Origin: Bacteroidales bacterium
GTDB taxonomy: Bacteria; Bacteroidota; Bacteroidia; Bacteroidales; UBA1402
Direction of reading: 5' to 3'
Length of the DNA: 64,000 nucleotides
Assembly: GCA_012718945.1 (NCBI GenBank)
Contig: JAAYBL010000144.1
Location: forward strand, 8,945-72,944
This document shows positions 8,793 to 63,580 of the stretch, one piece after another. How positions within the stretch are numbered: the first letter of the stretch is position 1; each line of letters opens with the position of its first letter. Made by a program: the position numbers and the translations under genes. The notes beneath the pieces are model-generated. The model saw only the letters and a list, made by a program, of their open reading frames with translations, ran no database searches and was not told where the DNA came from.

Positions 8793-8810
8793 GGTTTGTA
8801 GGTCACCCTG

Positions 8811-8818
8811 CAAAAATA
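8811..8818 (-). promoter_or_regulatory. Putative -7 promoter box TATTTTTG for the HTCS gene
   Basis: The reverse complement of caaaaata matches the Bacteroidota sigma-A -7 consensus TAnnTTTG. It lies about 19 nt upstream of ATG 8792. Confidence 0.45.
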
Positions 8819-8874
8819 GGGAAAAAATACACCTTTTGCACGCAGTCCTCCCCTCTTACCTCGTTTTAAACCCC

Positions 8875-8882
8875 TATTTTTG
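8875..8882 (+). promoter_or_regulatory. Putative -7 promoter box TATTTTTG for the GH3 gene
   Basis: tatttttg matches TAnnTTTG and lies 25 nt upstream of ATG 8907. Confidence 0.45.
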
Positions 8883-8906
8883 CCCATGTTTAACGTTATT
8901 ACCTTC

Positions 8907-17994: not shown

Positions 17995-18013
17995 GGCGAG
18001 ATTGGTTACGAGG

Positions 18014-41167: not shown

Positions 41168-41176
41168 AATCGGGTG

Positions 41177-41184
41177 CAAAGGTA
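41177..41184 (-). promoter_or_regulatory. Putative -7 box TACCTTTG for the TonB-dependent receptor operon
   Basis: The reverse complement of caaaggta matches TAnnTTTG. It lies 10 nt upstream of ATG 41167. Confidence 0.4.
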
Positions 41185-51012: not shown

Positions 51013-52098
51013 CTACATGCACCAAGCGCCATAGTGGGAAAAAAAGCCCAAACCGGCAAAGATGATAAATGCAATACCGGCCAACCATAGGATGAGCGCT
51101 GTCCATGAAAGCCATTTAGGTGTCGGTTTCAAGTTAAGTGACCGACCGAATAGCAAGACAAACAAGCTGATGAAGGGAATGGCTATCACAAGGATCAAAC
51201 CCAGGGTAACCCAAACGGCGATGGACGGTTGAGCCATGAGTTGCTCCATGGGATAGAACCCGACAAACCAATCGCTCATAAATGTCACGCTGCCGGTGGC
51301 CATGGTAATGAGGACGAACAGTAGAACCATCAGCAGAATGAAACCAACCAGCCCGATAATGCCACTGATAAGGCCAACAATACCCTTGGCCAGGATGACA
51401 AAAAAGCGACCCAAACCGTGGCCGATGCTTCTGGCATTTTGTTCGATGTGAGAGTTGTCCACCAGGTTGCTAACCCTGCCTCTGGCTTTATCAAACTCTT
51501 CCTTGACCTTCTTTTCGATGTTGTCGATGGTCACGTCTTCGCCTTCCATTTCCAGGCGTTGCGAGGCTGTAATAGCCTCAGGAATCACAATCCAGCAGAT
51601 GATATACATCCATACACCTGTCAAACCAAAGAAGGACAGCAAAATAAATCCCAACCGGAAGAAGACCTCACTGACGCCAAAGAACTTGGACAAACCGGTG
51701 GTCACACCACCCAGGACAGCACCTTCTGGATCCCTGTACAACTTACGTCGACGCTGTTCAAAACGGGTAGAGCCATGCTCATCGTTCCTTGGCGAACCGG
51801 TGCTACCGGACATATTGTCCGAGGCATTGTCGGACGTGTTGTCGTATTGCTCGGGGCGTCCGAGGATATCAATCACCTTCTTGACGTCGGTCAATGTCAC
51901 CACTTCCCGGCGGCCTTGCATCCATTCGTTGAACAATTCGCTCATGCGGTGTTCGATATCGTTGAGCACTTCTTCGGCCGATGCTTCATCGCCCAGGTGG
52001 TGCTTTACCTCGTTAAGATACGACGTCAATGAAGCATAAGCGTCCTCGTCTATATGAAAGACCGTTCCGCCTAAATTGACACTCAAGGTTTTTTTCAT
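51013..52098 (-). CDS. PspC domain-containing membrane protein
   Basis: PspC motif KLYRDPEGAVLGGVTTGLSKFFGVSEVFFRLGFILL. Several further TM helices follow. 361 aa. Confidence 0.8.
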   Translation of the reverse strand: MKKTLSVNLGGTVFHIDEDAYASLTSYLNEVKHHLGDEASAEEVLNDIEHRMSELFNEWMQGRREVVTLTDVKKVIDILGRPEQYDNTSDNASDNMSGSTGSPRNDEHGSTRFEQRRRKLYRDPEGAVLGGVTTGLSKFFGVSEVFFRLGFILLSFFGLTGVWMYIICWIVIPEAITASQRLEMEGEDVTIDNIEKKVKEEFDKARGRVSNLVDNSHIEQNARSIGHGLGRFFVILAKGIVGLISGIIGLVGFILLMVLLFVLITMATGSVTFMSDWFVGFYPMEQLMAQPSIAVWVTLGLILVIAIPFISLFVLLFGRSLNLKPTPKWLSWTALILWLAGIAFIIFAGLGFFSHYGAWCM

Positions 52099-52131
52099 CT
52101 TATGTTGGTTTAATCGTTTTCTTGCTGTGTA

Positions 52132-52455
52132 TCAGTCGTTCAGGTGATTGATGGCGCCTGACAATTCTTTCCAGGCGGCTTCCAATTCCTGCAGATTGGC
52201 AGCACCTTCTTCAGTGAGGGAAAAATATTTGCGGGGAGGGCCCTGGGTTGATTCAACCCATTCGTAGGACAACAACCCGTCGTTTTTCAAACGGGTCAAC
52301 AAGGGATACAAGGTCCCTTCCACCACGATGAGGTGGGCGCTTTTCAGGCCTTCAATGATGTCGGAGGTGTACGAGGGTCGTTTACGGACAATCAGCAACG
52401 TACAATACTCCAAAAAGCCTTTGCGCATCTGCGATTTGATGTTTTCGATATCCAT
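52132..52455 (-). CDS. PadR family transcriptional regulator
   Basis: Winged-helix PadR pattern GFLEYCTLLIV...SYTSDIIEGL...EGTLYPLLTRLKNDGLLSYEW. About 107 aa from ATG 52455. Confidence 0.85.
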   Translation of the reverse strand: MDIENIKSQMRKGFLEYCTLLIVRKRPSYTSDIIEGLKSAHLIVVEGTLYPLLTRLKNDGLLSYEWVESTQGPPRKYFSLTEEGAANLQELEAAWKELSGAINHLND

Positions 52456-52472
52456 GCCTTTTGAATTTGCGA

Positions 52473-52480
52473 CAAAGATA
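52473..52480 (-). promoter_or_regulatory. Putative -7 box TATCTTTG for padR-pspC
   Basis: The reverse complement of caaagata matches TAnnTTTG. It lies 18 nt upstream of ATG 52455. Confidence 0.4.
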
Positions 52481-52571
52481 TGCAAAATATAGTTCCTTGC
52501 AATACATAGTAGTAATTTTTTACAAGGTACTAGGCATTTTTTTATCCGACGTGTATTATTTCAAGGTTTTC

Positions 52572-54206
52572 TTAGTCTGTTATCCTGAATTTTTGGCTCA
52601 TTCCGTTGTATTGCAGCAGATAAAGACCAGGAGACAGACCGGGCAACACCTGCAAATGAGCGGTTGACAGACAGCGGGTCACACGTTGACCGGTTAAGGA
52701 GTAAACGGTAATGACCTCACCACTGACAGGTGCCTGGAAATACAGCGTATTGGGAGCCGTATAAAGGCTGACATGGGCAGCACTTACAGGACGCTGTACG
52801 CTTGAGAGTAAGGTGACCGGCATTTCAGCCGAGGGTGCACTCAGGTAGCCATCGTTACGGGACTGAAGAGTATAGACATATGTTTGTCCAGGGGTCAAGC
52901 CATCCACCTCACCTTCGGTTTCAGGTAGGGAGTCCAGCACGTTGACCAGGTTCAGGGTAGCGCCCTCTAGGGAATAAACATTCAGTCGGTAATGTTCGGC
53001 ATAGGACGATGGCTGCCAATGGGCTGTAAAACCAGTAGCACTCAAGTTGGTAGCCGGCATGACCTGAGGTGGAAGCAGGCTGTCAACGGGAATGCCTTTG
53101 GCGTTTATGTTCACCTTTACGCTGCCTTGAATACCGCCGTCGTAAATAATCAGCGAAGCTGTGTGATCACCGGCTTGGCTCGGTTGGTAAGTCAGGCTTA
53201 GTTGATACCCACTGTTGCCCTGTGCGGCCGAAATCTCCTTGACGGCTGACTGGAATTGGGCATAATCGTCCACTTGTTCAATTAAAACAGAGAGGGGCGC
53301 ATTCAGGGAAACGCCTTTCACATAAAGCGTGCGTTGACGGACATTTCCTACAATGGTGGGACCGAAAACCAGCTCCGTCTCGTTGGTTGGCGTAGACAGG
53401 ACAGGTTTACTGGCCACATCGAGTGTGAAGGTTTGACCGGCGGATGCCCCCCACAAGTACTCAGCCAACTCGGGGTAATCAATGAAGGGGTTGCGGTTGT
53501 TTTGAATTTTGAACACCGCTTCGTTGCGGTTGGTCTCTTTGGTGCTGACAGGATCCTGTCGGTGCCAACCCATCAACAACTGGATGGCCCAGGGTTTGAG
53601 CGTGGGATACGTGTTTTGATCGACCATATAGGTGTACCGCCAGTTCAAGTTTTGGTAGCAGGTCACCATGTAAAAGTAGGTACGGGCAAAGTCGCCTTTG
53701 TAGGCATCGTCCGGTTCAAAGACCATGGCATCGGTACCATAGCCAGGAAAGATGTTTCGCCCAACGCGGGTAACACCATTGTCGAAGGTTGTGTTTCCAA
53801 CCATACCCAGGGGGTAGTTGCTTTTGGCCATGTTGGCATCGCCATCCGATGGATACAGGTGATTGATGTCAGTATAGGCGGCATTCACATCCCCACCCCA
53901 CCAGCTTTTGGGAAAGGCGTGTTCGCGGTTCATGCCCCAACTACTGGTACGTACCACGTTTGAATACATGTCCCAGATACTGCCGTCGTCCCTCACATCG
54001 GTGGTTTTGAAGAACGTCCACAAGCTGGCGTAATCGTGAACGGTATGGTTGAGCAGCAGGTTGGAGAGAGTTGTCTTGAGGGCTTCGCTCTTTTTGCCGT
54101 TGAGGACGTCGTAATAGCCGTTGGGGTTGGCCGCTTGTAAAGTAACGGACAACCAAACAACACACACCAGGAGGCAAAAGGAGCGATAATGGAACATAGT
54201 GAGCAT
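52572..54206 (-). CDS. Secreted endonuclease I family nuclease with Ig/FN3-like extension and T9SS C-terminal sorting domain
   Basis: Endonuclease I motifs NREHAFPKSWWGG and NNRNPFIDYPELAEYLWG. An FN3-like segment follows (ATGFTAHWQPSSYAEHYRLNVY...GLTPGQTYVYTLQ). C-terminal tail ITVYSLTGQRV...GLYLLQYNG...FRITD. Confidence 0.8.
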   Translation of the reverse strand: MLTMFHYRSFCLLVCVVWLSVTLQAANPNGYYDVLNGKKSEALKTTLSNLLLNHTVHDYASLWTFFKTTDVRDDGSIWDMYSNVVRTSSWGMNREHAFPKSWWGGDVNAAYTDINHLYPSDGDANMAKSNYPLGMVGNTTFDNGVTRVGRNIFPGYGTDAMVFEPDDAYKGDFARTYFYMVTCYQNLNWRYTYMVDQNTYPTLKPWAIQLLMGWHRQDPVSTKETNRNEAVFKIQNNRNPFIDYPELAEYLWGASAGQTFTLDVASKPVLSTPTNETELVFGPTIVGNVRQRTLYVKGVSLNAPLSVLIEQVDDYAQFQSAVKEISAAQGNSGYQLSLTYQPSQAGDHTASLIIYDGGIQGSVKVNINAKGIPVDSLLPPQVMPATNLSATGFTAHWQPSSYAEHYRLNVYSLEGATLNLVNVLDSLPETEGEVDGLTPGQTYVYTLQSRNDGYLSAPSAEMPVTLLSSVQRPVSAAHVSLYTAPNTLYFQAPVSGEVITVYSLTGQRVTRCLSTAHLQVLPGLSPGLYLLQYNGMSQKFRITD

Positions 54207-54242
54207 AAAAAAGCCATCCGTTTAGCGAACTAAACGGATGGC
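54207..54242 (-). terminator. Strong hairpin plus T-run between the choice-of-anchor-J-like gene and the 544-aa endonuclease gene
   Basis: GCCATCCGTTTAG and CTAAACGGATGGC form a perfect 13-bp stem with loop CGAA (54213-54242). On the minus strand TTTTTT follows and runs directly into ATG 54206. Confidence 0.7.
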
Positions 54243-54255
54243 CGTGAATGAGTGG

Positions 54256-56472
54256 TTAAAGAACGATCTTAGTCGTTGTTTTGCCAACGCGTACCAGGTA
54301 CAACTGGCTTGGTGTCAGCGATAGGTTGTTGTTGCCTTCGTGTGCGACAACGGTGGTCACCTTGCGACCGAGCACGTTGTACACCTCGATGACCTGGCCT
54401 TGTTTGGCTACTACCGTCAATTGACCGTTGCTACCAAAGACGTTCAGCGAAGCTTGAGCAGCTGGACGTTTGGGCAGTGCCGTGGTGACATTGATGTCAG
54501 TCAGGCTGCGCGGGAAGAATTGAACAGTACCGTTATATTCAAGGGCCAGGGCGACATAATTAACGGCACCAACGGGGATGTTGGTCTCGGCTGTCATGTA
54601 ATCCAAGCCTGTATAGTTCGTACGCAACACAAGGGTGTCCTTGCCATCGGTGAAGTTGAAATTGGTTTTGGCTGTACCCCAGGTTGTTTTTCCACTGACG
54701 TTGGTCAATTGGTTGAGACGGATCAGCATGGATTCGTACTTATCCTTATTAGCCTTGTACTCAGCTATGGTCAATTCGACAGGAGTCAGGGTATTGTTTG
54801 AGCTGTTGACAGTGGCATTCTTCACAGGAATGAGTTCCATCACACCGCCGTAGGTATCAAAGGTTCCCGTCAGGTTCTTAACGCCATCGCCTACGTTTAG
54901 GTCAGTTGTAATCAAACCCTTGGTGTCGTAAATCAACACACCACCCTTGCTATCCTGGAAGTACTTGGAGTTTCCTGAACTGTGTTTGAAGCTCATGATT
55001 GCTTCGCCGGTAACGCGGTAGATCGTGGTTTCATCGGTGGGGGCAGCATCATAAGCAGCACGCAAAGCACCCAGGTCGGCTACTTCAACGGCTTGCCAGG
55101 CTTTACCCGTCACTGTAGCGGTGATGGCTTCGGCCAATCCGCCACCAGAAATGGTGATAACAGCGGTATCATTACCGACAGCGGTAGGCACATAATTGAC
55201 CTGGAGTTCATAACCGGCTGAGTCGATGACATCTGCGGCGGGTACGGAGGTAATCTTGGTATTGAAGGCTGTACCGACGGTATTGACCAGTGCAACGGTC
55301 AGATTACCGGTCAGATTGGTACCGGTAAGGGTCAGTTGCTTGGAAACCGTAGCACCGACTTCGGCATCAAAAGCAGCACCGGTCAGTGCGGCAACGGGAG
55401 TGTTGCTGGCAATCTGACGTTGTGAGATCACTAAACTATCAAGGAAGAAACGTCCTTTGGAAGCTTGGTTACCAGCAATGGTAAGAACCGTTTGGGATGT
55501 CCCACCAGTCACCTCAACGGGGCCATATGATACCAATACATAGGGTGTATCAATAGGCAAGCCAGATACGGTGGTGGCTTCCACTCCGTTGACTAACAGT
55601 TTTATTGTGGGACTGTCGTTCCTCCAGGCTGCAGCCTTGAAGGATACATAGAACTTACCACCGTCTTTTGACAAATCCATGGACGGCGTAACAATCGTCC
55701 CCAACCCCGAAGAAGAACCCAATTTGACGACACCTCCGGCTTGATTGACTTTGGTTCCACTCCATCCTGTTGTCTGGGTGTACGTATCCATCGTAGTGCC
55801 CACGTCTGTACCATCGGGAGAATTCAAGGTTCCTTTAGTGAATTTGTCAAAGTTTTCGCTCAAAACTATGGTGGGTTGAACAACGGGTTCATCAACCACT
55901 GATTCGACCAGCACATCCTTGATTTCCCAAGTGGCAGCATCGTTAATGGCTGCAGAGTCGGATTTGTAACGGAAAGCAAAGCGTACATTTTCCTTACCAG
56001 CATAGGCATCAAGGGCTATCAAACCCGAGCTGACAAAATTGTAATCATTGCCAGTACCATAGGTGAAATCAAACTTCGTCCACTTGGAGGAGTCAATGTC
56101 ACCACCTGTGTAACTATCGGTGACCCACAGTGTCAAGTTCCAGGTGGGATACAAGCCGTATTTATGGCAATTCTGAAAACTCAGGTTGGCTTTCTGGACA
56201 TCGGAGAAGTCCATAGAAGGAGACACCAACCAGTCTTCGTTCAACTTAGGAGCACTGGCATAGCCCGATATCTTGGCAAAGCCGGTGCCACTGAAAGATG
56301 ACCAGGCCCAAACTTGGTCACCCTTTACTGAAACAGGGGTGAAACTTCCTAATGAAGTGGCAAAAGTTTCCGAAAGTAAGGTGGCAGCCGAAGCGCCGGA
56401 AGCCATAAAAAGCAGGCCGGCTGTGACGACCAGCCATTTTTTAAAACGTAGAGTAGCATTTTTCATAGACAC
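54256..56472 (-). CDS. T9SS-sorted surface protein: N-terminal choice-of-anchor-J-like module, central beta-rich region, OB-like (DUF5689-like) module, T9SS C-terminal domain
   Basis: Signal peptide present. The ETFATSLGSF...NEDWLVSP...RFAFRYK...ATWEIKDVLVE module is paralogous to the C-terminus of the 57740-59905 lipoprotein. The segment IYRVTGEAIM...GGVLIYD...VGDGVKNLTGTFDTYGGVMEL resembles the OB-like modules of extracellular nucleases. C-terminal tail IEVYNVLGRKV...LYLVRVGKTTTKIVL. Confidence 0.6.
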   Translation of the reverse strand: MSMKNATLRFKKWLVVTAGLLFMASGASAATLLSETFATSLGSFTPVSVKGDQVWAWSSFSGTGFAKISGYASAPKLNEDWLVSPSMDFSDVQKANLSFQNCHKYGLYPTWNLTLWVTDSYTGGDIDSSKWTKFDFTYGTGNDYNFVSSGLIALDAYAGKENVRFAFRYKSDSAAINDAATWEIKDVLVESVVDEPVVQPTIVLSENFDKFTKGTLNSPDGTDVGTTMDTYTQTTGWSGTKVNQAGGVVKLGSSSGLGTIVTPSMDLSKDGGKFYVSFKAAAWRNDSPTIKLLVNGVEATTVSGLPIDTPYVLVSYGPVEVTGGTSQTVLTIAGNQASKGRFFLDSLVISQRQIASNTPVAALTGAAFDAEVGATVSKQLTLTGTNLTGNLTVALVNTVGTAFNTKITSVPAADVIDSAGYELQVNYVPTAVGNDTAVITISGGGLAEAITATVTGKAWQAVEVADLGALRAAYDAAPTDETTIYRVTGEAIMSFKHSSGNSKYFQDSKGGVLIYDTKGLITTDLNVGDGVKNLTGTFDTYGGVMELIPVKNATVNSSNNTLTPVELTIAEYKANKDKYESMLIRLNQLTNVSGKTTWGTAKTNFNFTDGKDTLVLRTNYTGLDYMTAETNIPVGAVNYVALALEYNGTVQFFPRSLTDINVTTALPKRPAAQASLNVFGSNGQLTVVAKQGQVIEVYNVLGRKVTTVVAHEGNNNLSLTPSQLYLVRVGKTTTKIVL

Positions 56473-56507
56473 TTGTTTTTAGATGAGACACCCAGTAAAT
56501 CCAAATC

Positions 56508-56515
56508 CAAAAGTA
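56508..56515 (-). promoter_or_regulatory. Putative -7 box TACTTTTG for the choice-of-anchor-J-like gene
   Basis: The reverse complement of caaaagta matches TAnnTTTG. It lies 36 nt upstream of ATG 56472, in a 140-nt AT-rich spacer. Confidence 0.4.
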
Positions 56516-56612
56516 CACAATAATAAATAAATATACAGTGATGTGTTGTGACAAAATTCCTAAAAAACAGTTACATCCATCCAATTAACACAAAAGAGCC
56601 GTCAAGGCACAT

Positions 56613-57692
56613 TTAATTGTCTTTCACGATATAAAGGGGCGTTGTACCGATCATCAGAAGAAGGTATCCGGTTTGAGGAATATCCAATCTGTAAGGATTG
56701 TTCATCAGTGTAGTCGCAAGCAATCGGCGTCCGAGAAGGTCAAATACCTGCAAACGTTGACCTGCTTTAGCGGTTACCCACCAGCAACAATCGCTGCAAT
56801 AGGCCTTTGGACGATTGTCATCCATCGGTCGCTCCAAGCCCACCGAGCCGGTCGGCAAAAAGGCGTAACCAATGGAGTCACCCCAAATGTATTCCACCAG
56901 ACGGGGTTCATCTATGTAAGGGTTGCGGTTGTGTTGATATTGGCTGTATATGACCTCGTTGCGGTTGATCTCCTTGGGACTGACCGGATCGTTGCGGTGC
57001 CAGGCCAGCAGCAGCTTCACACCCCAGTTGCTCAAGGCCGGATAGCTGTTTCCGGCCAACATCTCGGTATTGGCATTGCTCTTCCAGGATGCCACCACAT
57101 TCTCGTAGCGGGTCACCATGTAGAAGTACGTTCTGGCCATATCGCCCTTCAACTCATCGGCCGGTTCAAAGACGGTCAGGGTTGCCCCGCTTTCGGTGGA
57201 GGTGCCCCATTTGGAATAGTTGTTGGCAGAGGTGCCCGTAACTGTTTGCACGGTCCCGAAGGGAGTGTTGCCACGTTTGCCATTGACCCATTTGTCGGAG
57301 GGGTACAGGTGAAACAAATCCGTGTACATGGGGTATCCGTCATCAAACCAGCTTTTGGGAAACGAATGCTCCCTGTTGTAAAACTGGTTTTCACTAGTGC
57401 CACCACTGCCCCTGTCCTGATCATCCCCAAACACATAGTTGGTGATATTGGAATAGATGTCCCAAACCTTGCCGTCAGGTCGTTTGTCCGTTTTTTGAAA
57501 GGCTGTCCACAGGTCACTGTATGACAATTCCGTATGTCCTTTGATGGTATTGTACAATGCCGTCTTCAGCGCTTGACCGCTCAATCCCTGCGTAGCATCG
57601 TAATACCCTTGAGGTGGGCTGGCCGTTGCAACGCTGACTGCGATCAACAACCAACCCAACACGAGTATGCGGTTTTTCATATGCTGGATCAT
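56613..57692 (-). CDS. Secreted endonuclease I family nuclease (short form) with T9SS-like C-terminal domain
   Basis: Motifs NREHSFPKSWF and HNRNPYIDEPRLVEYIWG. Signal peptide present (the ATG at 57680 is an alternative start). C-terminal tail LQVFDLLGRRL...GYLLLMIG...YIVKDN. Confidence 0.8.
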   Translation of the reverse strand: MIQHMKNRILVLGWLLIAVSVATASPPQGYYDATQGLSGQALKTALYNTIKGHTELSYSDLWTAFQKTDKRPDGKVWDIYSNITNYVFGDDQDRGSGGTSENQFYNREHSFPKSWFDDGYPMYTDLFHLYPSDKWVNGKRGNTPFGTVQTVTGTSANNYSKWGTSTESGATLTVFEPADELKGDMARTYFYMVTRYENVVASWKSNANTEMLAGNSYPALSNWGVKLLLAWHRNDPVSPKEINRNEVIYSQYQHNRNPYIDEPRLVEYIWGDSIGYAFLPTGSVGLERPMDDNRPKAYCSDCCWWVTAKAGQRLQVFDLLGRRLLATTLMNNPYRLDIPQTGYLLLMIGTTPLYIVKDN

Positions 57693-57739
57693 TCAAGAAC
57701 AGGCGAACAAAATGGCGACGTTTTTACCACTGGCTCACA

Positions 57740-59905
57740 TTACTTAACGACCAACTCCTTGATTTCCCAGGTTGCCGACTCGGTATCCGAGCAGAGGTAC
57801 TTGAACGCCAACCGAACGTTGGATTGTCCCATAACGGCCGTGGGCAAACTGATGTTGCCGCTGTTGACAAACGTCCAATTGGTACCGGCAGGATACGTTG
57901 TGATCGCCACTTGAGTCCAGGTGGCTGAAGAGGGGGCTCCGCTGGTGTAGTTGGTACTCACCCACAAGGTGTGATTGGTGGTCATATTGGCCACCTCACC
58001 TTTGTTGATGGCATGGCTGAACGATACCGTGGCAGCACTGACAGCACTCAAATTGATGGCTGGTGAAATAAGCCAGTCTTCGTTGGCGTTACTGCGACTG
58101 TTAGCGTAACCCGACATATTGGCATAGCCCGAACTTTGGTAGGTTTTATGTTCCCAAGCCTGATCTCCCGCGACAGTAACACCCGTGAACCCACCCAAAC
58201 TGGTGGCAAAGGTTTCCGAATAAATGGTGGTGCCGGGATCAGGCGTAGGACCGGGATCAGAGCCACCGGTACCGGTGCTACCCAACGCGTAGGCGGTCAA
58301 CGTCTTGATGCCGGGCACACTGAAATAGGCTTCCAAACTGCCCTGGACACTCACCTGAGTGCCAAGTTTGGCAGGATTGTCCAACAAGTTCAAAGCGGTG
58401 CGGGGATCCGTACCGTAGGACAATTGAACAGGTACACAATTGCCGTCAGCGGTTTCCGTTGGGCTGTCGGCCAGCAATAGGTTGCTGGCGATGGCTCCCG
58501 TGGCCGAGTAGGTATAGGTGTAAGGTGACGTAGCGGTATTGATAAAACCAACAATGTAGCCGGTGACCCACTTGCCCGTCTCGCCTTGCTTGAGCTTGGC
58601 TTGGGCTACGGAATAGGGTTTGGAGGCCGTTCCGTCGCCAAGATCACCTGTACCCGGGTCGGTACCCGAATTAGAGGGTTCATCCAACCAGAACTCGGCA
58701 ACGTCTCCTGCATACAGAAGTACGCCGGGGGCACCGGAATAGGTTTCAAAAGAACCAACTACGGCAATAAGACGACCAAGATTATCGGGATGGGTATTCA
58801 GGTTTACGGAGTCGCGCAAGGCTGAACCGGCAGGCAGATTAACCACCATGCATTTGGACCAATCGGTTTCCATAGAGTCAGCGGCAATCACCAGCGTGTT
58901 TTCCATGAAGGGGGCTGTCCATTTGATACCATCATTTCCCGTCAATGGGTTGTCATTGTTGACGCCCGAATTAAGGGCACCTACGATGTATCCCTTCACC
59001 CAGGCCATTTTACCAACGTTTTGGTGTGAGAGCACATAACCTACCAGGTAAGGATCGGCTTTCGTTCCCGAGCCCTGACTGACAAAACCAGCTCCGAAAC
59101 CAACAAAGGCAAAGTCCATGGAATCACGTGGTGTAAACTGGTACGTGTTGTTGTATACCGACAGAATACCCGTCAGGTTACCATTTCCGGCAGGGAGTGT
59201 TTTGTTGGCGAAGTCGGAGGCACTGCTCAGGCGGACCACCAACGTCTTGCCGGGGAAATCAGTCGACGACAAGGTTTTGCTAACAGTTTGCGTGGAACCG
59301 TCGTTTGCAACAGGCGCACAGACCTCGGTACCACCTGTGGCGAAAAAGACATTCTCCAGCGTAATTAACTTGCCCAGGTTAGCCTCGGCAGCCACCGTAT
59401 TCATGGAGAATACCTCAGGGGTGAGCAGGTCATTGTCTGGTTCTGGCCAACCATCCTTGAAAACGTGGGCTTGAGCCACTTCCCAGGTCATCTGACCGAT
59501 GCCCGTGTTGTAAGGACCACCCAACTGCATATAGCCGCCGTATTTGCCTACGTACAAATCCTTGCACTCAATGTAAACCCGTTGGCCTAGCCTGAACTGG
59601 GTGTAAAGGTCGCCTTGGTTGATGGCCACCTTCAACCCACCGGTGCTGTCCATAATGGTCAACTCTTTGTAAAAGTTGCCGGAAATATCGTTGGCCACAA
59701 TAATACCGGAGATGACATCGTCGTCGGTAATCTGAGTGACGGCGACACCGGCATACTTGGCTTTGAAGGCCGCTATGGTCAACGTGGCTGTGTCTGAATA
59801 GACGGGTTCATTGAGGGGCGGCATGTCGAATTCACGCTGGTCGCAGGCGGTAAGAACAACGCCAAGACCCATCAGGGCTACGATAAAACGGGAAACTGTC
59901 TTCAT
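57740..59905 (-). CDS. Surface lipoprotein in the SusD position, built from an OB-like (DUF5689-like) region, two tandem repeat modules (DUF6359-like) and a C-terminal choice-of-anchor-J-like module
   Basis: Lipobox VVLTAC (Cys21). The internal duplication is clear: WVKGYIVGALN...NLGRLIAVVGSFETYSGAPGV aligns with WVTGYIVGFIN...KLGTQVSVQGSLEAYFSVPGI. The C-terminus runs ETFATSLGGF...NEDWLISP...RLAFKY...ATWEIKELVVK. It lies 30 nt downstream of the TonB-dependent receptor gene. The DUF names are from memory and need an HMM check. Confidence 0.65.
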   Translation of the reverse strand: MKTVSRFIVALMGLGVVLTACDQREFDMPPLNEPVYSDTATLTIAAFKAKYAGVAVTQITDDDVISGIIVANDISGNFYKELTIMDSTGGLKVAINQGDLYTQFRLGQRVYIECKDLYVGKYGGYMQLGGPYNTGIGQMTWEVAQAHVFKDGWPEPDNDLLTPEVFSMNTVAAEANLGKLITLENVFFATGGTEVCAPVANDGSTQTVSKTLSSTDFPGKTLVVRLSSASDFANKTLPAGNGNLTGILSVYNNTYQFTPRDSMDFAFVGFGAGFVSQGSGTKADPYLVGYVLSHQNVGKMAWVKGYIVGALNSGVNNDNPLTGNDGIKWTAPFMENTLVIAADSMETDWSKCMVVNLPAGSALRDSVNLNTHPDNLGRLIAVVGSFETYSGAPGVLLYAGDVAEFWLDEPSNSGTDPGTGDLGDGTASKPYSVAQAKLKQGETGKWVTGYIVGFINTATSPYTYTYSATGAIASNLLLADSPTETADGNCVPVQLSYGTDPRTALNLLDNPAKLGTQVSVQGSLEAYFSVPGIKTLTAYALGSTGTGGSDPGPTPDPGTTIYSETFATSLGGFTGVTVAGDQAWEHKTYQSSGYANMSGYANSRSNANEDWLISPAINLSAVSAATVSFSHAINKGEVANMTTNHTLWVSTNYTSGAPSSATWTQVAITTYPAGTNWTFVNSGNISLPTAVMGQSNVRLAFKYLCSDTESATWEIKELVVK

Positions 59906-59935
59906 ATGGAGGATTGTTTAGTTGTCTGAAGTTGG

Positions 59936-62434
59936 TTAGAAACGGTAAGCTACCATCAGGAAAGCGTTCAGCCCCTGAGCATAGTAATAATAGGGAGGAT
60001 ACTTGTCTACGTTGTAATTGACGTAGTCGAAGCGGCCCTGTTCGTAGCCACCTGTCTTCATTTTCAGGTTATTGAGCAGGTTGTTGACCTGCAGGTTGAT
60101 GTTAATCAGGTTACCATTGTCCAGGCGGATGGATTTTCCGATGGATGCATCCACCATGATGCCTCCCTGGTATTTTTCCTGGTCGGTGATTTTGTGAGCC
60201 ATGGCCATGTAATCGGCGTAGCTGTTGGCATTGAATTGCAGGATTTCAGCCGTGCGACGGATGGGGGTCATATCAATGTAGTTGTTGCCGTAGTAGCTGG
60301 CTCCCAGATCGAAAAACCAGTAGGCCGGATGAGCGTAACTCAATTCTACGTTGAAGGCTGTTTGAGGGGTTCCGCTTACCTTGTAGTTCTTCAGGTAAAT
60401 GGTACGGGAAACATCGGCTTGCATACCATTTTCCACACTGATGGTGGCTGTGGGGCGGCTGTCGTAGTAGAAATCGCCCACAGAGCCAAGTACAGTGGCG
60501 GTGAGCTCAGAAGTCAGTTTGGCTGACAGACCGAGTTCCAGGCCTTTGTGCACCTTGTCTACACCAGTCAGGACGGAATTCACAAACGTGCGCATCTCAT
60601 CGTTGTAGAAGTTGTCGATTTCCACCTGGTCGGCGAAGCGCGTATAATACACGCTTACCCTACCTCTGATAATGCGGCTATTGTAGGTGTAATTGAGGTC
60701 GGTGTGCGTCACAGCTTCAGTGCCCAATCCCTTGACGGCATCATCCTTGATACGGGGCGAAATGTAAGCGTTGTTGGGCAGTGGCGGATTGGTGGCAGCC
60801 AGCAGGTTGGCGGAAACCAGGTGATTGCCGCTGGGCTTCCAGGTAGCTCCGGCTTTGACCGTATGGGTGAGGAAGCTATGCACCTGACCTCTGCCGTAGG
60901 AGTTGTTGGGTGAACGACCGTTACGCATCATGCCCTCGCGTTGGAAGCGGGTGTAGTCAACTTTAGCTGCGTAGTAGTAATCCCAGTTGTTGTATGAATA
61001 GTTGTTTTGGAACCAGGCGTTGCTGTTGAGCACGTCGATGGTGTAATTGTACCCAAACACATCGTCCTTTTTCTTGATGGTGGACGCACTGTTCAAGTCG
61101 TTGTACTGGATGTTAGGGTTGATGGGGGAATAATTCTCCGTGTACTGATCAATGTCAGAAAAGCGATCGGCACCCAACAGATCGGCCACCGTTTTGTAGT
61201 GCAAGCCCTTGGTGTAGCGGGCTTCTATGCCACCGGCGGTTTTCAGATGTTCGCTTTGACGACGGTTGAGCACAGAACTGAGTACCACCTGTTTCTGGTC
61301 GTTGTGCCGTTCTTCCAGGATGTAACGGGCACTTTGACCGTCATCTTTGGCCAATTTGTTAGCCATATAAAGATCGTTCCAATTGATTTGGGTATCGTCT
61401 GGATTGCCTGCTTGCCAGATTGACGTGTACAACGACTTCATGGCATCCGTCGATTGATAGCTGGGCAGGTTGCGGTAATAGGTGGGGCTGGGATTGGGCG
61501 CGTTGTTGTACGCCAGCGCCGTCGAGCCGTAGCCGCTGGCTCTCAGGGCCAGGCCAGTGTTCAACTTGGTATCCTTGTCTGGTGTGAAAAGGTGGTTGAA
61601 CAACACAACCGGCTCATAGGTTGTCACGATACGGGAGTTTCGCTTCTTGCCATCCTGATAACCCCAATAGGCATTGTAGTAATTGGTACCCCGCAGATTG
61701 TACACTTCCTGCGTATTGGCACTTTGGCCGCCACGCTGGGTGGGTGCACCAAAAGAGGTAATGGATAGACTGTGGCGGTTGTTGAACACTTTTTCCAGTG
61801 CGGCCAGGTAACCAAGGCTGTTGTAGAATGTCCCTTCGATGTAACCCTCATCGGCCCAACGATACCCAAGGGCGGCGGTAAAAGCCCAACCAGAGGGCAG
61901 CAAGCCTGTGGAATAGGTATAGGTGGCCCTAGTTTTGTAATTGCGGTTGGTGTAGGCCAGAGAGACCCTGCTTCCCGGCGTGTATTGGCTGGCCCTCATG
62001 ATGATGTTGGAGGCACCCCCAACGTTGCCAAATCCGTAGTCGATGGCTGATATCCCGGAAATGTCTTCGCTGTTGCGAACGACATCGTTAAGACCACCCA
62101 ACATGGAGTAGGAGAATACCCCTCTTTCCAGGTCGTTGAGCGTGACCCCGTTGAGCGACATTTGCGTGTAATTATTCTGATACCCCCTGATGCGGAAGCG
62201 CATGGCGCTGAAGGCATATCCGGCGTTGGCGGTAAACACATCGTTGGCCGAAGCCAATGCGGCCGAAACGTACTGGGCATCATCATGCTCGTCATCGAGC
62301 ATGGACTCGTTGAAGAGGAAGACAGGCGCTCCCGTAACGGCGGGTATGGCTGCGGTATCTTCCTGGGCATGAGCGCCTACTGTGGCCATCAGGCCTGCAA
62401 GGACACATAGACAACCTCGTTTGATGGGATTCAT
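59936..62434 (-). CDS. TonB-dependent receptor-like outer-membrane beta-barrel
   Basis: Signal peptide ending in GAHAQ. Plug-like segment ARFRIRGY...MSLNGVTLND. The protein is about 830 aa and beta-rich, with a terminal aromatic residue (...LMVAYRF). I see no SusC-style carboxypeptidase-regulatory-like N-terminal domain. Confidence 0.8.
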   Translation of the reverse strand: MNPIKRGCLCVLAGLMATVGAHAQEDTAAIPAVTGAPVFLFNESMLDDEHDDAQYVSAALASANDVFTANAGYAFSAMRFRIRGYQNNYTQMSLNGVTLNDLERGVFSYSMLGGLNDVVRNSEDISGISAIDYGFGNVGGASNIIMRASQYTPGSRVSLAYTNRNYKTRATYTYSTGLLPSGWAFTAALGYRWADEGYIEGTFYNSLGYLAALEKVFNNRHSLSITSFGAPTQRGGQSANTQEVYNLRGTNYYNAYWGYQDGKKRNSRIVTTYEPVVLFNHLFTPDKDTKLNTGLALRASGYGSTALAYNNAPNPSPTYYRNLPSYQSTDAMKSLYTSIWQAGNPDDTQINWNDLYMANKLAKDDGQSARYILEERHNDQKQVVLSSVLNRRQSEHLKTAGGIEARYTKGLHYKTVADLLGADRFSDIDQYTENYSPINPNIQYNDLNSASTIKKKDDVFGYNYTIDVLNSNAWFQNNYSYNNWDYYYAAKVDYTRFQREGMMRNGRSPNNSYGRGQVHSFLTHTVKAGATWKPSGNHLVSANLLAATNPPLPNNAYISPRIKDDAVKGLGTEAVTHTDLNYTYNSRIIRGRVSVYYTRFADQVEIDNFYNDEMRTFVNSVLTGVDKVHKGLELGLSAKLTSELTATVLGSVGDFYYDSRPTATISVENGMQADVSRTIYLKNYKVSGTPQTAFNVELSYAHPAYWFFDLGASYYGNNYIDMTPIRRTAEILQFNANSYADYMAMAHKITDQEKYQGGIMVDASIGKSIRLDNGNLININLQVNNLLNNLKMKTGGYEQGRFDYVNYNVDKYPPYYYYAQGLNAFLMVAYRF

Positions 62435-62527
62435 CGGCGTTGTGCGTATTGGTTAAATGGGGCGTAAAAGTACAAAGATTTCGAATAAAAATACGACCTT
62501 TACATCGTAAATAAAAACGCTCCCGGC

Positions 62528-63580
62528 ATGAAAGTTAAAGCATTTTTCATTATAGTGTGTTTATCGCTGTTAACCAACGGGTTGGTTGTGGCCCAGACAC
62601 AAACAGATAAACAGGTGGCGGTCTACAGCCTCGGGTTTTACAACCTGGAGAATTTGTTTGACACCATTCCTTCGCCAGGCGTCAACGACGTCGAGTTCAC
62701 CCCCGACGGCGTCAAAGCCTGGAACGGACAGAAATACTGGAAAAAAATCGGGAACATGAGTTACGCGATCAGCAAGTTGGCCAGGGAATTCTGTCCGGAG
62801 GGGCCAGCCATCCTCGGCGTTTGCGAAATTGAAAACCGTACTGTCCTGGAAGATTTGGCTAAAGCACCACTGTTGCGCCAAGCCAACTATCAGATTGTCC
62901 ATTATGATTCACCTGAGCTTAGGGGGGTGGATGTTGCCTTGTTGTATAATCCGAAACTGTTCACGCTGACATCCAGCCGTCCTTACCGGTTTACCTTACC
63001 CAACCGTCCCGATTGGAAAAGCAGGGACCAGTTGCTGGTTAGTGGTCTGTTGGCCGGTGAACCCATCCATGTGATTGTCTGCCATTGGCCATCCCGTCGA
63101 AACGGGGAGAAACAATCCCGTCCGCTGCGGGTGGAAGCGGCCAAATTATCCAAGCACATCATCGACTCCCTTCACAAGGCCGACCCCTACGCCAAAATTG
63201 TCCTCATGGGCGATCTGAATGATGATCCCGACAACATTCCCCTCAAGAAAACCCTCAACGCCAAGATGAAACCAGAAGAAGTCAAACCACAAGGGTTGTT
63301 CAACCCCATGTGGCGACTTCTCGATAAGGGTATCGGCTCATTGGGTTACCGGGGAGAATGGAACCTCTTCGACCAGATCATCCTCTCCTACGCCTGGCTG
63401 GGCAACGACCGGTCAACCTTGAAATACTGGAAACCGGAAGTGTTCAACAAGGACTTCCTGATTCAACAGGAAGGCACCTATAAAGGGTATCCCTGGCGGA
63501 CGTTCAGTGGCAACCTCTTCATCGAAGGGTACAGTGACCACTTCCCCACCCTGGTCTACGTCGTCAAAGAAGTCCGCTGA
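62528..63580 (+). CDS. Secreted endonuclease/exonuclease/phosphatase (EEP) family protein, probable extracellular nuclease
   Basis: Signal peptide MKVKAFFIIVCLSLLTNGLVVAQ. EEP landmarks are N-terminal FYNLENLFD, ILGVCEIEN, VIVCHWPSR, LMGDLND and C-terminal SDHFP. Confidence 0.8.
   Translation: MKVKAFFIIVCLSLLTNGLVVAQTQTDKQVAVYSLGFYNLENLFDTIPSPGVNDVEFTPDGVKAWNGQKYWKKIGNMSYAISKLAREFCPEGPAILGVCEIENRTVLEDLAKAPLLRQANYQIVHYDSPELRGVDVALLYNPKLFTLTSSRPYRFTLPNRPDWKSRDQLLVSGLLAGEPIHVIVCHWPSRRNGEKQSRPLRVEAAKLSKHIIDSLHKADPYAKIVLMGDLNDDPDNIPLKKTLNAKMKPEEVKPQGLFNPMWRLLDKGIGSLGYRGEWNLFDQIILSYAWLGNDRSTLKYWKPEVFNKDFLIQQEGTYKGYPWRTFSGNLFIEGYSDHFPTLVYVVKEVR

What the first reader, a model, noticed from the sequence alone, without database searches (positions are those of the whole stretch)
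52572..63580. PUL-like locus with nucleases in place of glycosidases: candidate extracellular-DNA capture, degradation and import system
Seen in the sequence: six consecutive genes carry export signals and fit one theme.
- A TonB-dependent receptor (59936-62434) is followed 30 nt later by a large lipoprotein (57740-59905). That is the position where a SusD-like gene would sit, but the lipoprotein is built from OB-like and repeat modules rather than TPR helices.
- Next come a short endonuclease I (56613-57692), a T9SS-tagged protein that shares two module types with the lipoprotein (54256-56472), and a long endonuclease I with FN3/Ig extensions (52572-54206).
- A secreted EEP-family nuclease (62528-63580) is transcribed divergently from the receptor.

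Established knowledge: endonuclease I (the EndA/Vvn/Dns family) comprises sugar-non-specific secreted DNases. EEP domains fused to OB/LTD-like modules make up ExeM/NucH-type extracellular nucleases. Bacteroidota organise polymer foraging as an outer-membrane TonB transporter plus a surface binding lipoprotein plus surface enzymes.

Inference: this locus applies that design to nucleic acid. Its role could be DNA as a phosphorus, nitrogen or carbon source, or remodelling of biofilm eDNA. To my knowledge no such receptor-lipoprotein-nuclease unit has been functionally characterised, but I cannot check the literature here.
Basis: partly seen in the sequence, partly recalled or inferred. Interest (0 to 1): 0.78.

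Follow-up and report, generated by a model that had tools for sequence, protein, structure and literature searches.

The report
DNA-scavenging locus with T9SS-exported nucleases
This is a real gene cluster for catching, cutting and importing extracellular DNA in an uncultured Bacteroidales bacterium, but the same kind of system (ddbABCDEF / BT3560-3563) was already described experimentally in 2021-2025, so it is a new variant rather than a new discovery.

Summary
They are an Exo_endo_phos_3 nuclease, a plug-bearing outer-membrane receptor, a DUF5689-DUF6359x2-choice-of-anchor-J lipoprotein 30 nt downstream, two Endonuclease I enzymes, and a modular DUF5689 protein with a T9SS tail.

The core is strongly syntenic. 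A DUF5689 gene directly follows the receptor in 79 of 80 related loci, and the EEP nuclease is within 10 kb in 55 of 80. Endonuclease I is nearby in only 6 of 80. The full six-gene order is kept in three of four distinct genomes of the window's own clade.

The lipoprotein model's best solved-structure match is the p204 HIN-dsDNA complex. Catalytic residues of all three nucleases are conserved.

The functional reading is supported, but the novelty claim is out of date. Homologous receptor + DUF5689 + nuclease loci were characterised as ddbABCDEF (Sharan 2025), BT3560-3563 (Bechon 2022) and Riemerella natural-transformation genes (2021).

Three things differ here. The surface nucleases are Endonuclease I with T9SS sorting domains, not EEP lipoproteins. 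There is an extra T9SS-tagged DUF5689 protein. The lipoprotein is a fusion of modules that 25 of 80 loci encode as two genes.

Verdict: new variant of a known kind, moderate interest.

The parts
62528..63580 (+). EEP-superfamily nuclease (Exo_endo_phos_3, 350 aa). It has a type I signal peptide and no sorting domain, so it is probably periplasmic. It is the proposed DdbB-like enzyme that trims imported fragments.
   Evidence: Pfam PF19580 at E 1.2e-120, full length. N39, E41, E100, E102, H186, D229, N231, D282, D337 and H338 are at least 98% conserved in 56 syntenic homologs. A homolog lies within 10 kb of the receptor in 55 of 80 loci, divergently upstream in 39.
62435..62527 (.). Divergent 93-nt intergenic region between the EEP gene and the receptor gene. 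It holds a Bacteroidota-type -7 box candidate (TACTTTTA at 62465-62472 on the - strand).
   Evidence: Sequence read directly. The alignment with four relatives shows a conserved block, and L084 and L086 carry the exact TAnnTTTG consensus there. Promoter function is inferred, not tested.
59936..62434 (-). Outer-membrane receptor (832 aa) of the DdbC / RA0C_RS04915-type family. It has a signal peptide, a plug and a divergent barrel, and lacks the N-terminal CarboxypepD_reg domain that 10 of the 16 aligned family members carry.
   Evidence: Plug at 21.1 bits, below the cutoff. Plug is detected in 8 of 16 family members and CarbopepD_reg in 10 of 16. 2332 homologs at E<=1e-5, several named 'TonB-dependent receptor' by NCBI. 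At least 598 relatives in species-representative genomes. The barrel is not detected by profile searches.
57740..59905 (-). Lipoprotein (721 aa). Layout: lipobox Cys21; DUF5689 (aa 40-264, tandem OB/HIN-like); two DUF6359 (aa ~280-541); choice-of-anchor J jelly-roll (aa 562-720). Proposed DNA-binding lid or partner of the receptor, DdbD-like with extra modules.
   Evidence: Pfam and NCBIfam hits. AlphaFold2 model with mean pLDDT 84.6. Top Foldseek PDB match is 5z7d, the p204 HINab-dsDNA complex (E 2.6e-8); IFI16 HIN (2oq0) also matches. A DUF5689 ORF follows the receptor in 79 of 80 loci. It is fused with DUF6359 in 16 loci and split into two genes in 25.
56613..57692 (-). Short Endonuclease I (359 aa): signal peptide, catalytic domain aa 39-263, and a divergent T9SS-like C-terminal domain.
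   Evidence: PF04231 at E 5.4e-70. H109 (NREH motif) and N137 are invariant and E108 nearly invariant in 15 homologs. N137 aligns with the Asn of the Vvn 'EVNGDRSN' segment, SEQRES index 109, in PDB 1OUO/1OUP. The T9mod-CTD profile hits the ortholog C-termini at E ~1e-13 to 1e-14 and the window copy at E 7e-6.
54256..56472 (-). T9SS-tagged modular surface protein (738 aa). Layout: choice-of-anchor-J-like jelly-roll (29-193); second jelly-roll related to the Riemerella AS87_RS02955 family (198-355); Ig-like domain (358-460); DUF5689 (462-665); type A sorting domain (676-738). Proposed accessory surface DNA binder.
   Evidence: Pfam and NCBIfam hits. The tail alone passes TIGR04183 (23.9 against a cutoff of 23). 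Model with mean pLDDT 84.8. Foldseek returns only generic beta-sandwich matches and no nuclease fold. About 40 full-length homologs, all in the window's clade. The gene is absent from L084/L085.
54212..54243 (-). Intrinsic-terminator-like hairpin (14-bp perfect stem, UUCG loop, U6). It lies directly after the modular gene and abuts the ATG of the long endonuclease.
   Evidence: Found in the scan and read in sequence. dG -23.1 kcal/mol, z = -6.7, 0 of 200 shuffles fold as well. Relatives L082 and L086 have equally strong hairpins of different sequence at the same junction, and L084 has one after the short endonuclease.
52572..54206 (-). Long Endonuclease I (544 aa): signal peptide, catalytic domain aa 41-246, Ig-like domain (274-367), fn3 (379-463) and a T9SS type A sorting domain.
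   Evidence: PF04231 at E 4.7e-52, fn3 at E 1.5e-8, ASH/Cep192_D4 and choice_anch_D. The tail alone scores 23.2 bits against the TIGR04183 cutoff of 23. The catalytic His and Asn columns are invariant. Orthologs are present in all four distinct clade genomes examined.

Best explanation
This is a ddb-type DNA (nucleic-acid) utilization locus in an uncultured Bacteroidales bacterium.

Proposed mechanism:
1. Two sugar-non-specific Endonuclease I enzymes and a modular DUF5689 protein are exported by the type IX secretion system. They are displayed on the cell surface or released, and they bind and cut extracellular DNA, and possibly RNA.
2. The lipoprotein binds the fragments through its HIN/OB-like DUF5689 and DUF6359 modules. 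It is acylated at Cys21 and paired with the receptor encoded 30 nt upstream.
3. The receptor, a divergent plug-and-barrel protein of the DdbC family, moves the fragments into the periplasm, presumably using TonB energy.
4. The periplasmic EEP nuclease, encoded divergently, degrades them further. Uptake and salvage are done by genes outside the locus.

The likely benefit is nucleotide, nucleobase or phosphorus/nitrogen scavenging.

Shown here: gene content, domain families, conserved catalytic residues, conserved synteny, and the fold similarity to a dsDNA-binding HIN domain.

Inferred from homologous systems: DNA binding, transport, T9SS dependence, cellular locations and physiological role.
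For: - Domain families of all six proteins.
- Receptor + DUF5689 adjacency in 79 of 80 loci from species-representative genomes, and the EEP nuclease within 10 kb in 55 of 80.
- Six-gene order conserved in three of four distinct genomes of the window's clade (L081, L082/L083 and L086). Proteins that are present are 48-99% identical, and L084/L085 lacks the modular gene.
- The lipoprotein model's top PDB match is the p204 HINab-dsDNA complex. This parallels the published DdbD-p202 HIN similarity (PMC12478041).
- Endonuclease I His and Asn are invariant and the Glu of the NREH motif nearly so, and the domain aligns to Vvn.
- EEP catalytic residues are invariant.
- T9SS type A tails pass the cutoff on two proteins and are profile-detectable on the third.
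- Published genetics: deleting ddbABCDEF abolishes DNA depletion; DdbA, DdbB and DdbF are DNases in vitro; and the locus is described there as PUL-like. BT3563 is an extracellular DNase in the BT3560-3563 operon.
Against: - No direct alignment to DdbC, DdbD or the Riemerella proteins could be made, so the link rests on shared Pfam families, synteny and fold.
- The receptor reaches only a sub-threshold Plug score, and its barrel is invisible to profile searches. No structure model of it was made.
- The choice-of-anchor-J and second jelly-roll modules resemble carbohydrate-binding and adhesin domains by fold. They also occur fused to fimbrillins and peptidases, so they are not evidence for DNA binding.
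- In B. thetaiotaomicron, DNA was a poor sole C, N or P source, so a nutritional role is not established even for the model system.
- The strict lipoprotein surface-export motif used by Sharan et al. is not met in the window's clade, which has CDQREFD.
- The organism is uncultured, so nothing here is tested.
Confidence: 0.72

Rival explanations
1. The locus is the outer-membrane entry stage of a natural-transformation (competence) system, as in Riemerella anatipestifer. The receptor and DUF5689 protein would take up long DNA for recombination rather than for food.
For: The homologous pair RA0C_RS04915/RA0C_RS04920 (a CarboxypepD_reg outer-membrane protein plus a DUF5689/choice-of-anchor-J protein) is essential for transformation in Riemerella (PMC8459023). 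Sharan et al. regard ddb as evolutionarily related to it. The NCBIfam Riemerella lipoprotein model lipo_M949_1556 matches the window lipoprotein at E 3e-46.
Against: - Three non-specific nucleases, two of them T9SS-tagged for export, would shred incoming DNA. From general knowledge, secreted Endonuclease I (Dns) antagonises transformation in Vibrio.
- No comEC, dprA or comF genes are in the 64-kb window.
- Gut Bacteroidales carrying ddb loci gave inconsistent DNA-uptake results.
- The lipo_M949_1556 score (158 bits) is far below that family's cutoff of 475.
Confidence: 0.12
2. The main role is remodelling extracellular DNA in biofilms or escaping DNA traps, that is surface DNase activity, with the receptor and lipoprotein secondary.
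For: BT3563 in the homologous B. thetaiotaomicron operon is needed for bile-dependent biofilm formation through eDNA degradation. The Riemerella T9SS-secreted EndoI and AS87_RS02955 are virulence-associated nucleases.
Against: This does not explain why the nucleases are tied to a receptor + DUF5689 pair in 79 of 80 loci, nor the periplasmic EEP enzyme. It is compatible with, rather than exclusive of, the import model.
Confidence: 0.1
3. It is an ordinary adhesin or glycan-binding surface locus that happens to sit next to nucleases. The beta-sandwich modules would bind carbohydrate or host ligands.
For: The choice-of-anchor-J domain and the second jelly-roll match gingipain adhesin domains, CBMs and Eph ligand-binding domains by fold. 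The same module occurs in fimbrillins and peptidases.
Against: The DUF5689 part matches a dsDNA-bound HIN domain best. Nuclease co-occurrence is systematic (55 of 80 loci for EEP) and no glycoside hydrolase is a regular member. The single GH31 in L082 is an insertion. There are no SusC or SusD signatures.
Confidence: 0.04

Closest known systems
ddbABCDEF DNA-utilization locus of Bacteroides thetaiotaomicron and its Bt1/Bt2/Pv1/Pv2 subtypes (Sharan et al., PNAS 2025, PMC12478041). It is equivalent to the BT3560-3563 operon (Bechon et al., PNAS 2022, PMC8851478).
   Same: Both have an outer-membrane transporter followed directly by a DUF5689 protein with a HIN-like fold. Both have several nucleases carrying export signals, including one with only a type I signal peptide. 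Both have an additional surface protein of unknown function and a PUL-like logic.
   Different: - The surface nucleases here are Endonuclease I (PF04231) with T9SS type A sorting domains. In B. thetaiotaomicron, BT3562 and BT3563 are lipoproteins, and the figure legends label genes of the locus as EEP. The ddb paper never mentions T9SS.
- There is an extra T9SS-anchored DUF5689 protein.
- The lipoprotein is a DUF5689-DUF6359x2-CAJ fusion.
- The receptor lacks the CarboxypepD_reg N-terminal domain.
- The receptor is at most 46% identical to any of the 80 best matches in species-representative genomes. It therefore probably falls outside the four published subtypes, whose criterion is >50% identity. 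This was not tested directly.
Riemerella anatipestifer natural-transformation genes RA0C_RS04915/RA0C_RS04920 (PMC8459023)
   Same: An adjacent outer-membrane beta-barrel protein and a DUF5689 + choice-of-anchor-J protein. According to Sharan et al., a ddbB-like nuclease gene lies next to them.
   Different: The Riemerella pair serves transformation. No Endonuclease I or T9SS modular protein is reported in that locus. The Riemerella receptor carries the CarboxypepD_reg domain.
Polysaccharide utilization loci (SusC/SusD paradigm)
   Same: An outer-membrane transporter gene followed by a surface lipoprotein gene, with surface enzymes and a periplasmic enzyme.
   Different: There is no SusC (TIGR04056-type) or SusD/RagB signature. 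The partner is all-beta OB/jelly-roll rather than TPR. The enzymes are nucleases. No linked HTCS or ECF-sigma regulator is present.
Riemerella T9SS-secreted nucleases EndoI (AS87_RS02625) and AS87_RS02955
   Same: An Endonuclease I with a T9SS sorting domain. The second domain of the modular protein (aa 199-357) matches the AS87_RS02955 family model at E 2.8e-18.
   Different: The score of 66 bits is far below the family cutoff of 260. The modelled domain is a generic jelly-roll with no recognisable nuclease site. The Riemerella genes are not reported as linked to a receptor.

Membership tests
ddb-type DNA-utilization locus (Sharan et al. 2025) | Anchored by a DdbC-family outer-membrane transporter, with BLASTP >50% identity and >75% coverage to a Bt1, Bt2, Pv1 or Pv2 DdbC for subtype assignment | not testable with these tools
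   The DdbC sequences (WP_008762511.1, WP_055220680.1, WP_005843284.1, WP_117829583.1) could not be retrieved, and no supplements are held. Indirect evidence: the window receptor is at most 46% identical to the best 80 of at least 598 matches in species-representative genomes.
ddb-type DNA-utilization locus (Sharan et al. 2025) | A DUF5689 protein (DdbD) encoded directly next to the transporter | tested here: met
   DUF5689 at E 9e-63 in the gene 30 nt downstream. The same adjacency occurs in 79 of 80 related loci.
ddb-type DNA-utilization locus (Sharan et al. 2025) | The DdbD-like protein has a fold similar to HIN-200 dsDNA-binding domains | tested here: met
ddb-type DNA-utilization locus (Sharan et al. 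2025) | Locus encodes secreted and/or periplasmic nucleases | tested here: met
   Two Endonuclease_1 proteins and one Exo_endo_phos_3 protein, all with signal peptides and conserved catalytic residues. Enzyme activity was not tested.
ddb-type DNA-utilization locus (Sharan et al. 2025) | Locus required for depletion of exogenous DNA | not testable with these tools
   This needs genetics, and the organism is uncultured.
TonB-dependent transporter | Plug domain plus a 22-strand barrel recognisable by family models, and a TonB box | tested here: inconclusive
   Plug at 21.1 bits against a cutoff of 23.9 in the window protein. Plug is detected in 8 of 16 family members. The barrel is not detected against PDB chains or against the window's own classical TBDT (hhalign E 0.21).
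SusC/SusD polysaccharide utilization locus | SusC-type TBDT and a SusD/RagB TPR lipoprotein pair | tested here: not met
   No SusC, SusD or RagB family hit in Pfam or NCBIfam. The lipoprotein model is almost entirely beta.
T9SS type A cargo | C-terminal Por_Secre_tail (TIGR04183) domain at or above the cutoff | tested here: met
   Tails scanned alone: long endonuclease 23.2 bits and modular protein 23.9 bits, against a cutoff of 23. The short endonuclease tail has no direct hit but matches a profile of the modular protein's CTD (E 7e-6; orthologs at ~1e-13 to 1e-14). No T9SS machinery genes lie in the window.
Endonuclease I (EndA/Vvn/Dns, PF04231) | beta-beta-alpha-metal site: catalytic His, preceding Glu, and a Mg-ligand Asn | tested here: met
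   H109 and N137 (short enzyme numbering) are invariant and E108 nearly invariant in 15 homologs. N137 aligns to the Asn of 'EVNGDRSN' at SEQRES index 109 in the Vvn chains 1OUO/1OUP. Equating it with Vvn Asn127, and the His with His80, rests on my memory of Vvn numbering.
ExeM/NucH extracellular nuclease | NF033681 model at or above its cutoff of 300 bits | tested here: not met
   16.5 bits. The EEP enzyme is a single-domain Exo_endo_phos_3 protein.
AS87_RS02955-family T9SS surface endonuclease (NF052644) | Equivalog model at or above its cutoff of 260 bits | tested here: not met
   66.2 bits over model positions 20-175 of 251. This is domain-level homology only, and there is no nuclease-like fold match.

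The most novel reading that the evidence does not exclude
The locus represents a fifth, T9SS-coupled subtype of ddb systems. In it the type IX secretion system, rather than lipoprotein or OMV export, delivers the DNA-cutting and DNA-binding parts. The modular protein's second jelly-roll (aa 198-355, related to the Riemerella AS87_RS02955 'endonuclease') would be a previously unrecognised nuclease or nucleic-acid-binding fold. That would make the locus a four-nuclease machine and link T9SS to DNA foraging in environmental Bacteroidales.
Probability: 0.15. Interest if true: 0.6.

Novelty: new variant of a known kind. Interest (0 to 1): 0.38.

Why it matters
Extracellular DNA is a large pool of phosphorus, nitrogen and carbon in soils, sediments and guts. 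The ddb system is the first described Bacteroidota route for using it, but so far only in gut Bacteroides, which lack T9SS.

This window shows the same core (EEP nuclease, receptor, DUF5689 binder) in an uncultured lineage. One relative comes from a JGI environmental metagenome (L083). Here the core is combined with Endonuclease I enzymes and an extra DUF5689 protein that carry T9SS sorting signals.

The survey made here shows which parts are core and which are interchangeable accessories. The receptor-DUF5689 pair occurs in 79 of 80 loci and EEP in 55 of 80, across Bacteroidales, Sphingobacterium and a Phnomibacter MAG. Endonuclease I occurs in 6 of 80.

That is useful for annotating such loci. 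Their proteins are currently often labelled 'hypothetical' or 'DUF5689 domain-containing protein'. It is also useful for choosing tractable T9SS-bearing relatives, for example Paraprevotella clara, to test how DNA crosses the outer membrane.

It does not open a new question.

Tried and rejected


Full report
OBSERVATION

- 62528-63580(+) is a full-length Exo_endo_phos_3 protein (E 1e-120).
- 59936-62434(-) is an 832-aa protein with a signal peptide and a sub-threshold Plug hit (21.1 bits against a cutoff of 23.9).
- 57740-59905(-) starts 30 nt after it. It is a lipoprotein with DUF5689 (E 9e-63), two DUF6359 domains (E 2e-55) and a choice-of-anchor-J domain (E 2e-15).
- 56613-57692(-) carries Endonuclease_1 (E 5e-70), and 52572-54206(-) carries it at E 5e-52. 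The long one adds an Ig-like domain and fn3.
- 54256-56472(-) has DUF5689 (E 6e-10) and a C-terminal sorting domain.

The 'two shared modules' are real. The lipoprotein's C-terminal domain and the modular protein's N-terminal domain are 46% identical (E 8e-34), and both proteins hit DUF5689.

The C-terminal tails were scanned alone. The long endonuclease scores 23.2 bits and the modular protein 23.9 bits, both above the T9SS type A cutoff of 23. A profile of the modular protein's tail also hits the C-termini of the short endonuclease's orthologs (E 1e-13 to 1e-14) and, more weakly, the window copy (E 7e-6). So all three proteins look like T9SS cargo.

The EEP enzyme has only a type I signal peptide and no sorting domain. 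I read it as periplasmic rather than secreted. It is not ExeM/NucH type (16.5 bits against a cutoff of 300).

CONSERVATION

An alignment of receptor homologs (A1) was used to scan one genome per species. At least 598 relatives were found, and the best 80 loci were fetched with 10-kb flanks. Searching their ORFs with the window's domains gave the following.
- A DUF5689 ORF lies immediately downstream of the receptor in 79 of 80 loci. The exception is cut by a contig end.
- The EEP nuclease is within 10 kb in 55 of 80. It is divergent upstream, as in the window, in 39, and directly downstream in 12.
- DUF6359 is present in 42 of 80 and choice-of-anchor J in 51 of 80.
- Endonuclease I is present in only 6 of 80.

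The conserved core is therefore EEP + receptor + DUF5689.

The DUF5689 and DUF6359 modules are fused in one gene, as here, in 16 loci, and split into two consecutive genes in 25.

The family spans Bacteroidales (Muribaculaceae, Paludibacter, Paraprevotella, Prevotella and Bacteroides MAGs), Sphingobacterium, and a MAG labelled Phnomibacter.

None of the 80 loci is closer than 46% to the window receptor. The window's own clade appeared only through the metagenome protein searches. Contigs from that clade represent four distinct genomes: L081, L082/L083, L084/L085, and L086 from the 4.1-Mb chromosome GCA_942493385.1.
- All four keep the same order and the same flanks: Tpx/AhpC | EEP | receptor | lipoprotein | short Endo I | modular protein | long Endo I | PadR | PspC | transketolase.
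- Every protein that is present is intact and 48-99% identical to the window copy.
- The modular gene is missing in L084/L085. A GH31 gene is inserted in L082/L083.
- The modular protein's full architecture has only about 40 homologs, all in this clade.

ACTIVE SITES AND FOLDS
- In a 15-sequence Endonuclease I alignment, the His of the NREH motif (H109) and N137 are invariant, and the preceding Glu (E108) is nearly so. A profile of that alignment matches the Vvn/Endonuclease I structures 1OUO, 1OUP and 2PU3 at E 1e-13 to 2e-12. It puts N137 on the Asn of 'EVNGDRSN' at SEQRES index 109. By my recollection of Vvn numbering this is the Mg ligand Asn127.
- The EEP enzyme's canonical residues (N39, E41, E100, E102, H186, D229, N231, D282, D337, H338) are at least 98% conserved in 56 syntenic homologs.
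- The lipoprotein gave an AlphaFold2 model with mean pLDDT 84.6. Its best Foldseek match among solved structures is the p204 HINab-dsDNA complex (E 2.6e-8), and IFI16 HIN also matches. Its C-terminal domain matches gingipain adhesin domains and CBMs.
- The modular protein's model has mean pLDDT 84.8 and five beta-rich domains. It matched only generic jelly-rolls.
- The modular protein's second domain matches the NCBIfam model for the Riemerella AS87_RS02955 'T9SS surface endonuclease' at 66 bits against a cutoff of 260. I found no nuclease-like fold or conserved His, so I treat this as a lead only.

The receptor is the weakest link.
- Plug is detectable in 8 of 16 family members, and the CarboxypepD_reg N-terminal domain in 10 of 16 but not in the window protein.
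- The barrel is invisible to profile searches.

TRANSCRIPTION UNITS (INFERRED)

Gaps of 30, 47 and 140 nt separate the first four genes on the minus strand. Directly after the fourth gene there is a perfect 14-bp hairpin with a U6 tract, at 54212-54243. Its dG is -23.1 kcal/mol, z = -6.7, and none of 200 shuffles folds as well. It ends at the ATG of the long endonuclease.

L082 and L086 have equally strong hairpins of different sequence at the same junction. L084, which lacks the modular gene, has one after the short endonuclease.

So the 'six-gene unit' is probably three transcription units: receptor-lipoprotein-EndoI-modular protein, then long EndoI (possibly with PadR and PspC), then the divergent EEP gene.

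The 93-nt divergent intergenic region has a conserved block with a TAnnTTTG-type -7 box. The match is exact in L084 and L086; the window has TACTTTTA at 62465-62472 on the minus strand.

WHAT IS KNOWN

A full-text search for DUF5689 led to three papers.
- Sharan et al., PNAS 2025 (PMC12478041). B. thetaiotaomicron ddbABCDEF encodes three DNases (DdbA, DdbB, DdbF), a TonB-dependent transporter (DdbC), a DUF5689 protein (DdbD) whose model resembles the p202 HIN domain, and a further surface protein (DdbE). Deleting the locus abolishes DNA depletion and lowers uracil and xanthine in mice. The authors call it PUL-like, relate it to the Riemerella transformation genes, and define four subtypes.
- Bechon et al., 2022. 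They had shown that BT3560-3563, the same locus, encodes an extracellular DNase needed for bile-dependent biofilm formation. They describe BT3562 and BT3563 as lipoproteins with nuclease activity, and the figure legends label genes of the locus as EEP.
- The 2021 Riemerella study. It showed that RA0C_RS04915 (CarboxypepD_reg outer-membrane protein) and RA0C_RS04920 (DUF5689 + choice-of-anchor J) are essential for natural transformation.

MECHANISM AND RIVALS

My preferred model, at about 0.72 confidence:
1. T9SS-exported Endonuclease I enzymes and a T9SS-anchored DUF5689 protein bind and fragment extracellular nucleic acid.
2. The HIN/OB-like lipoprotein hands the fragments to the receptor for import.
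3. The periplasmic EEP nuclease finishes the degradation.
4. Salvage genes lie elsewhere.

Rival readings:
- Natural transformation (about 0.12). It is disfavoured by the three non-specific nucleases and by the lack of competence genes in the window. It cannot be excluded without the genome.
- Biofilm or eDNA remodelling (about 0.10). This is compatible with the import model rather than exclusive of it.
- A glycan or adhesin locus (about 0.04). This does not fit the systematic nuclease linkage.

COMPARISON AND NOVELTY

The locus works like a ddb locus and shares its defining, testable features: the DUF5689 neighbour, the HIN-like fold and the exported nucleases. Subtype membership by the authors' own BLAST criterion could not be tested, because the reference sequences were not retrievable.

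It differs in five ways.
- Enzyme family: Endonuclease I rather than the EEP-labelled lipoprotein nucleases of B. thetaiotaomicron.
- Export route: T9SS sorting domains. T9SS is not mentioned at all in the ddb paper.
- An extra T9SS DUF5689 protein.
- A fused DUF5689-DUF6359-CAJ lipoprotein.
- A receptor without the CarboxypepD_reg domain.

I rate it a new variant of a known kind, with interest about 0.38.

Noticed in passing
window 54212-54243 (-): A perfect 14-bp hairpin with U6 (dG -23.1 kcal/mol, z -6.7) whose U-tract runs straight into the ATG of the long endonuclease. This leaves no room for a promoter between terminator and start codon. Relatives keep a strong hairpin at the same junction with unrelated sequences.
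   Followed up: yes
window 51013-52485 (-): A PadR-family regulator (52132-52485) and a PspC-domain membrane protein (51013-52098) directly follow the long endonuclease. They are conserved there in all clade relatives (PadR 78-99% identical). It is unclear whether they are co-transcribed with or regulate the locus, or are just syntenic neighbours.
   Followed up: partly
L084 13268-14137 (-) / L085 6536-7405 (-): In this relative the T9SS modular gene is replaced by an unrelated 289-aa gene on the opposite strand. That gene also ends in a T9SS-CTD-like tail (profile E 9e-5).
   Followed up: partly
L082 15875-17518 (+): A GH31 glycoside hydrolase gene is inserted between the modular gene and the long endonuclease in one relative. 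This shows the junction after the terminator is a site of gene gain.
   Followed up: no
window 54256-56472 (-), aa 199-357: The second domain matches the NCBIfam model for the Riemerella AS87_RS02955 'T9SS surface endonuclease' (E 2.8e-18, 66 bits against a cutoff of 260). The modelled domain is a plain jelly-roll. According to the review read here, the residues critical in the Riemerella protein are hydrophobic (F39, F92, I134, F145), which makes me doubt a true catalytic role.
   Followed up: partly
window 57740-59905 (-), aa 9-269: This region matches the NCBIfam 'M949_1556 family lipoprotein' model (E 3e-46, below cutoff). M949_1556 is described in Riemerella only as affecting LPS antigenicity and virulence. 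Whether it is the same gene as the transformation gene RA0C_RS04920 could not be established.
   Followed up: partly
one search hit list (homologs of window 54256-56472, aa ~30-190): The choice-of-anchor-J-like module recurs fused to Endonuclease_1 (P0312-P0314, P0362) and EEP (P0311, P0348) proteins. It also recurs fused to fimbrillins (PF13149) and to M4 and C10 peptidases. It is therefore a promiscuous surface module, not a nucleic-acid-specific one.
   Followed up: no
window 23834-26314 (-): An 826-aa ORF combining a Mur ligase middle domain with a complete alanine racemase (N and C domains), apparently a bifunctional cell-wall enzyme fusion.
   Followed up: no
window 4518-11057: A hybrid two-component sensor (1431 aa: Reg_prop/Y_Y_Y, HisKA, HATPase, receiver, AraC HTH) lies next to a divergently transcribed GH3 glycosidase. 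This is a conventional glycan-sensing unit unrelated to the finding. A classical TonB-dependent receptor (38924-41179) and a GH28 (32199-33617) are also in the window.
   Followed up: no
window 17065-19531 (-): An adjacent squalene/phytoene synthase-family gene and an FAD amine-oxidase/desaturase-family gene, suggestive of a carotenoid or related isoprenoid pathway.
   Followed up: no
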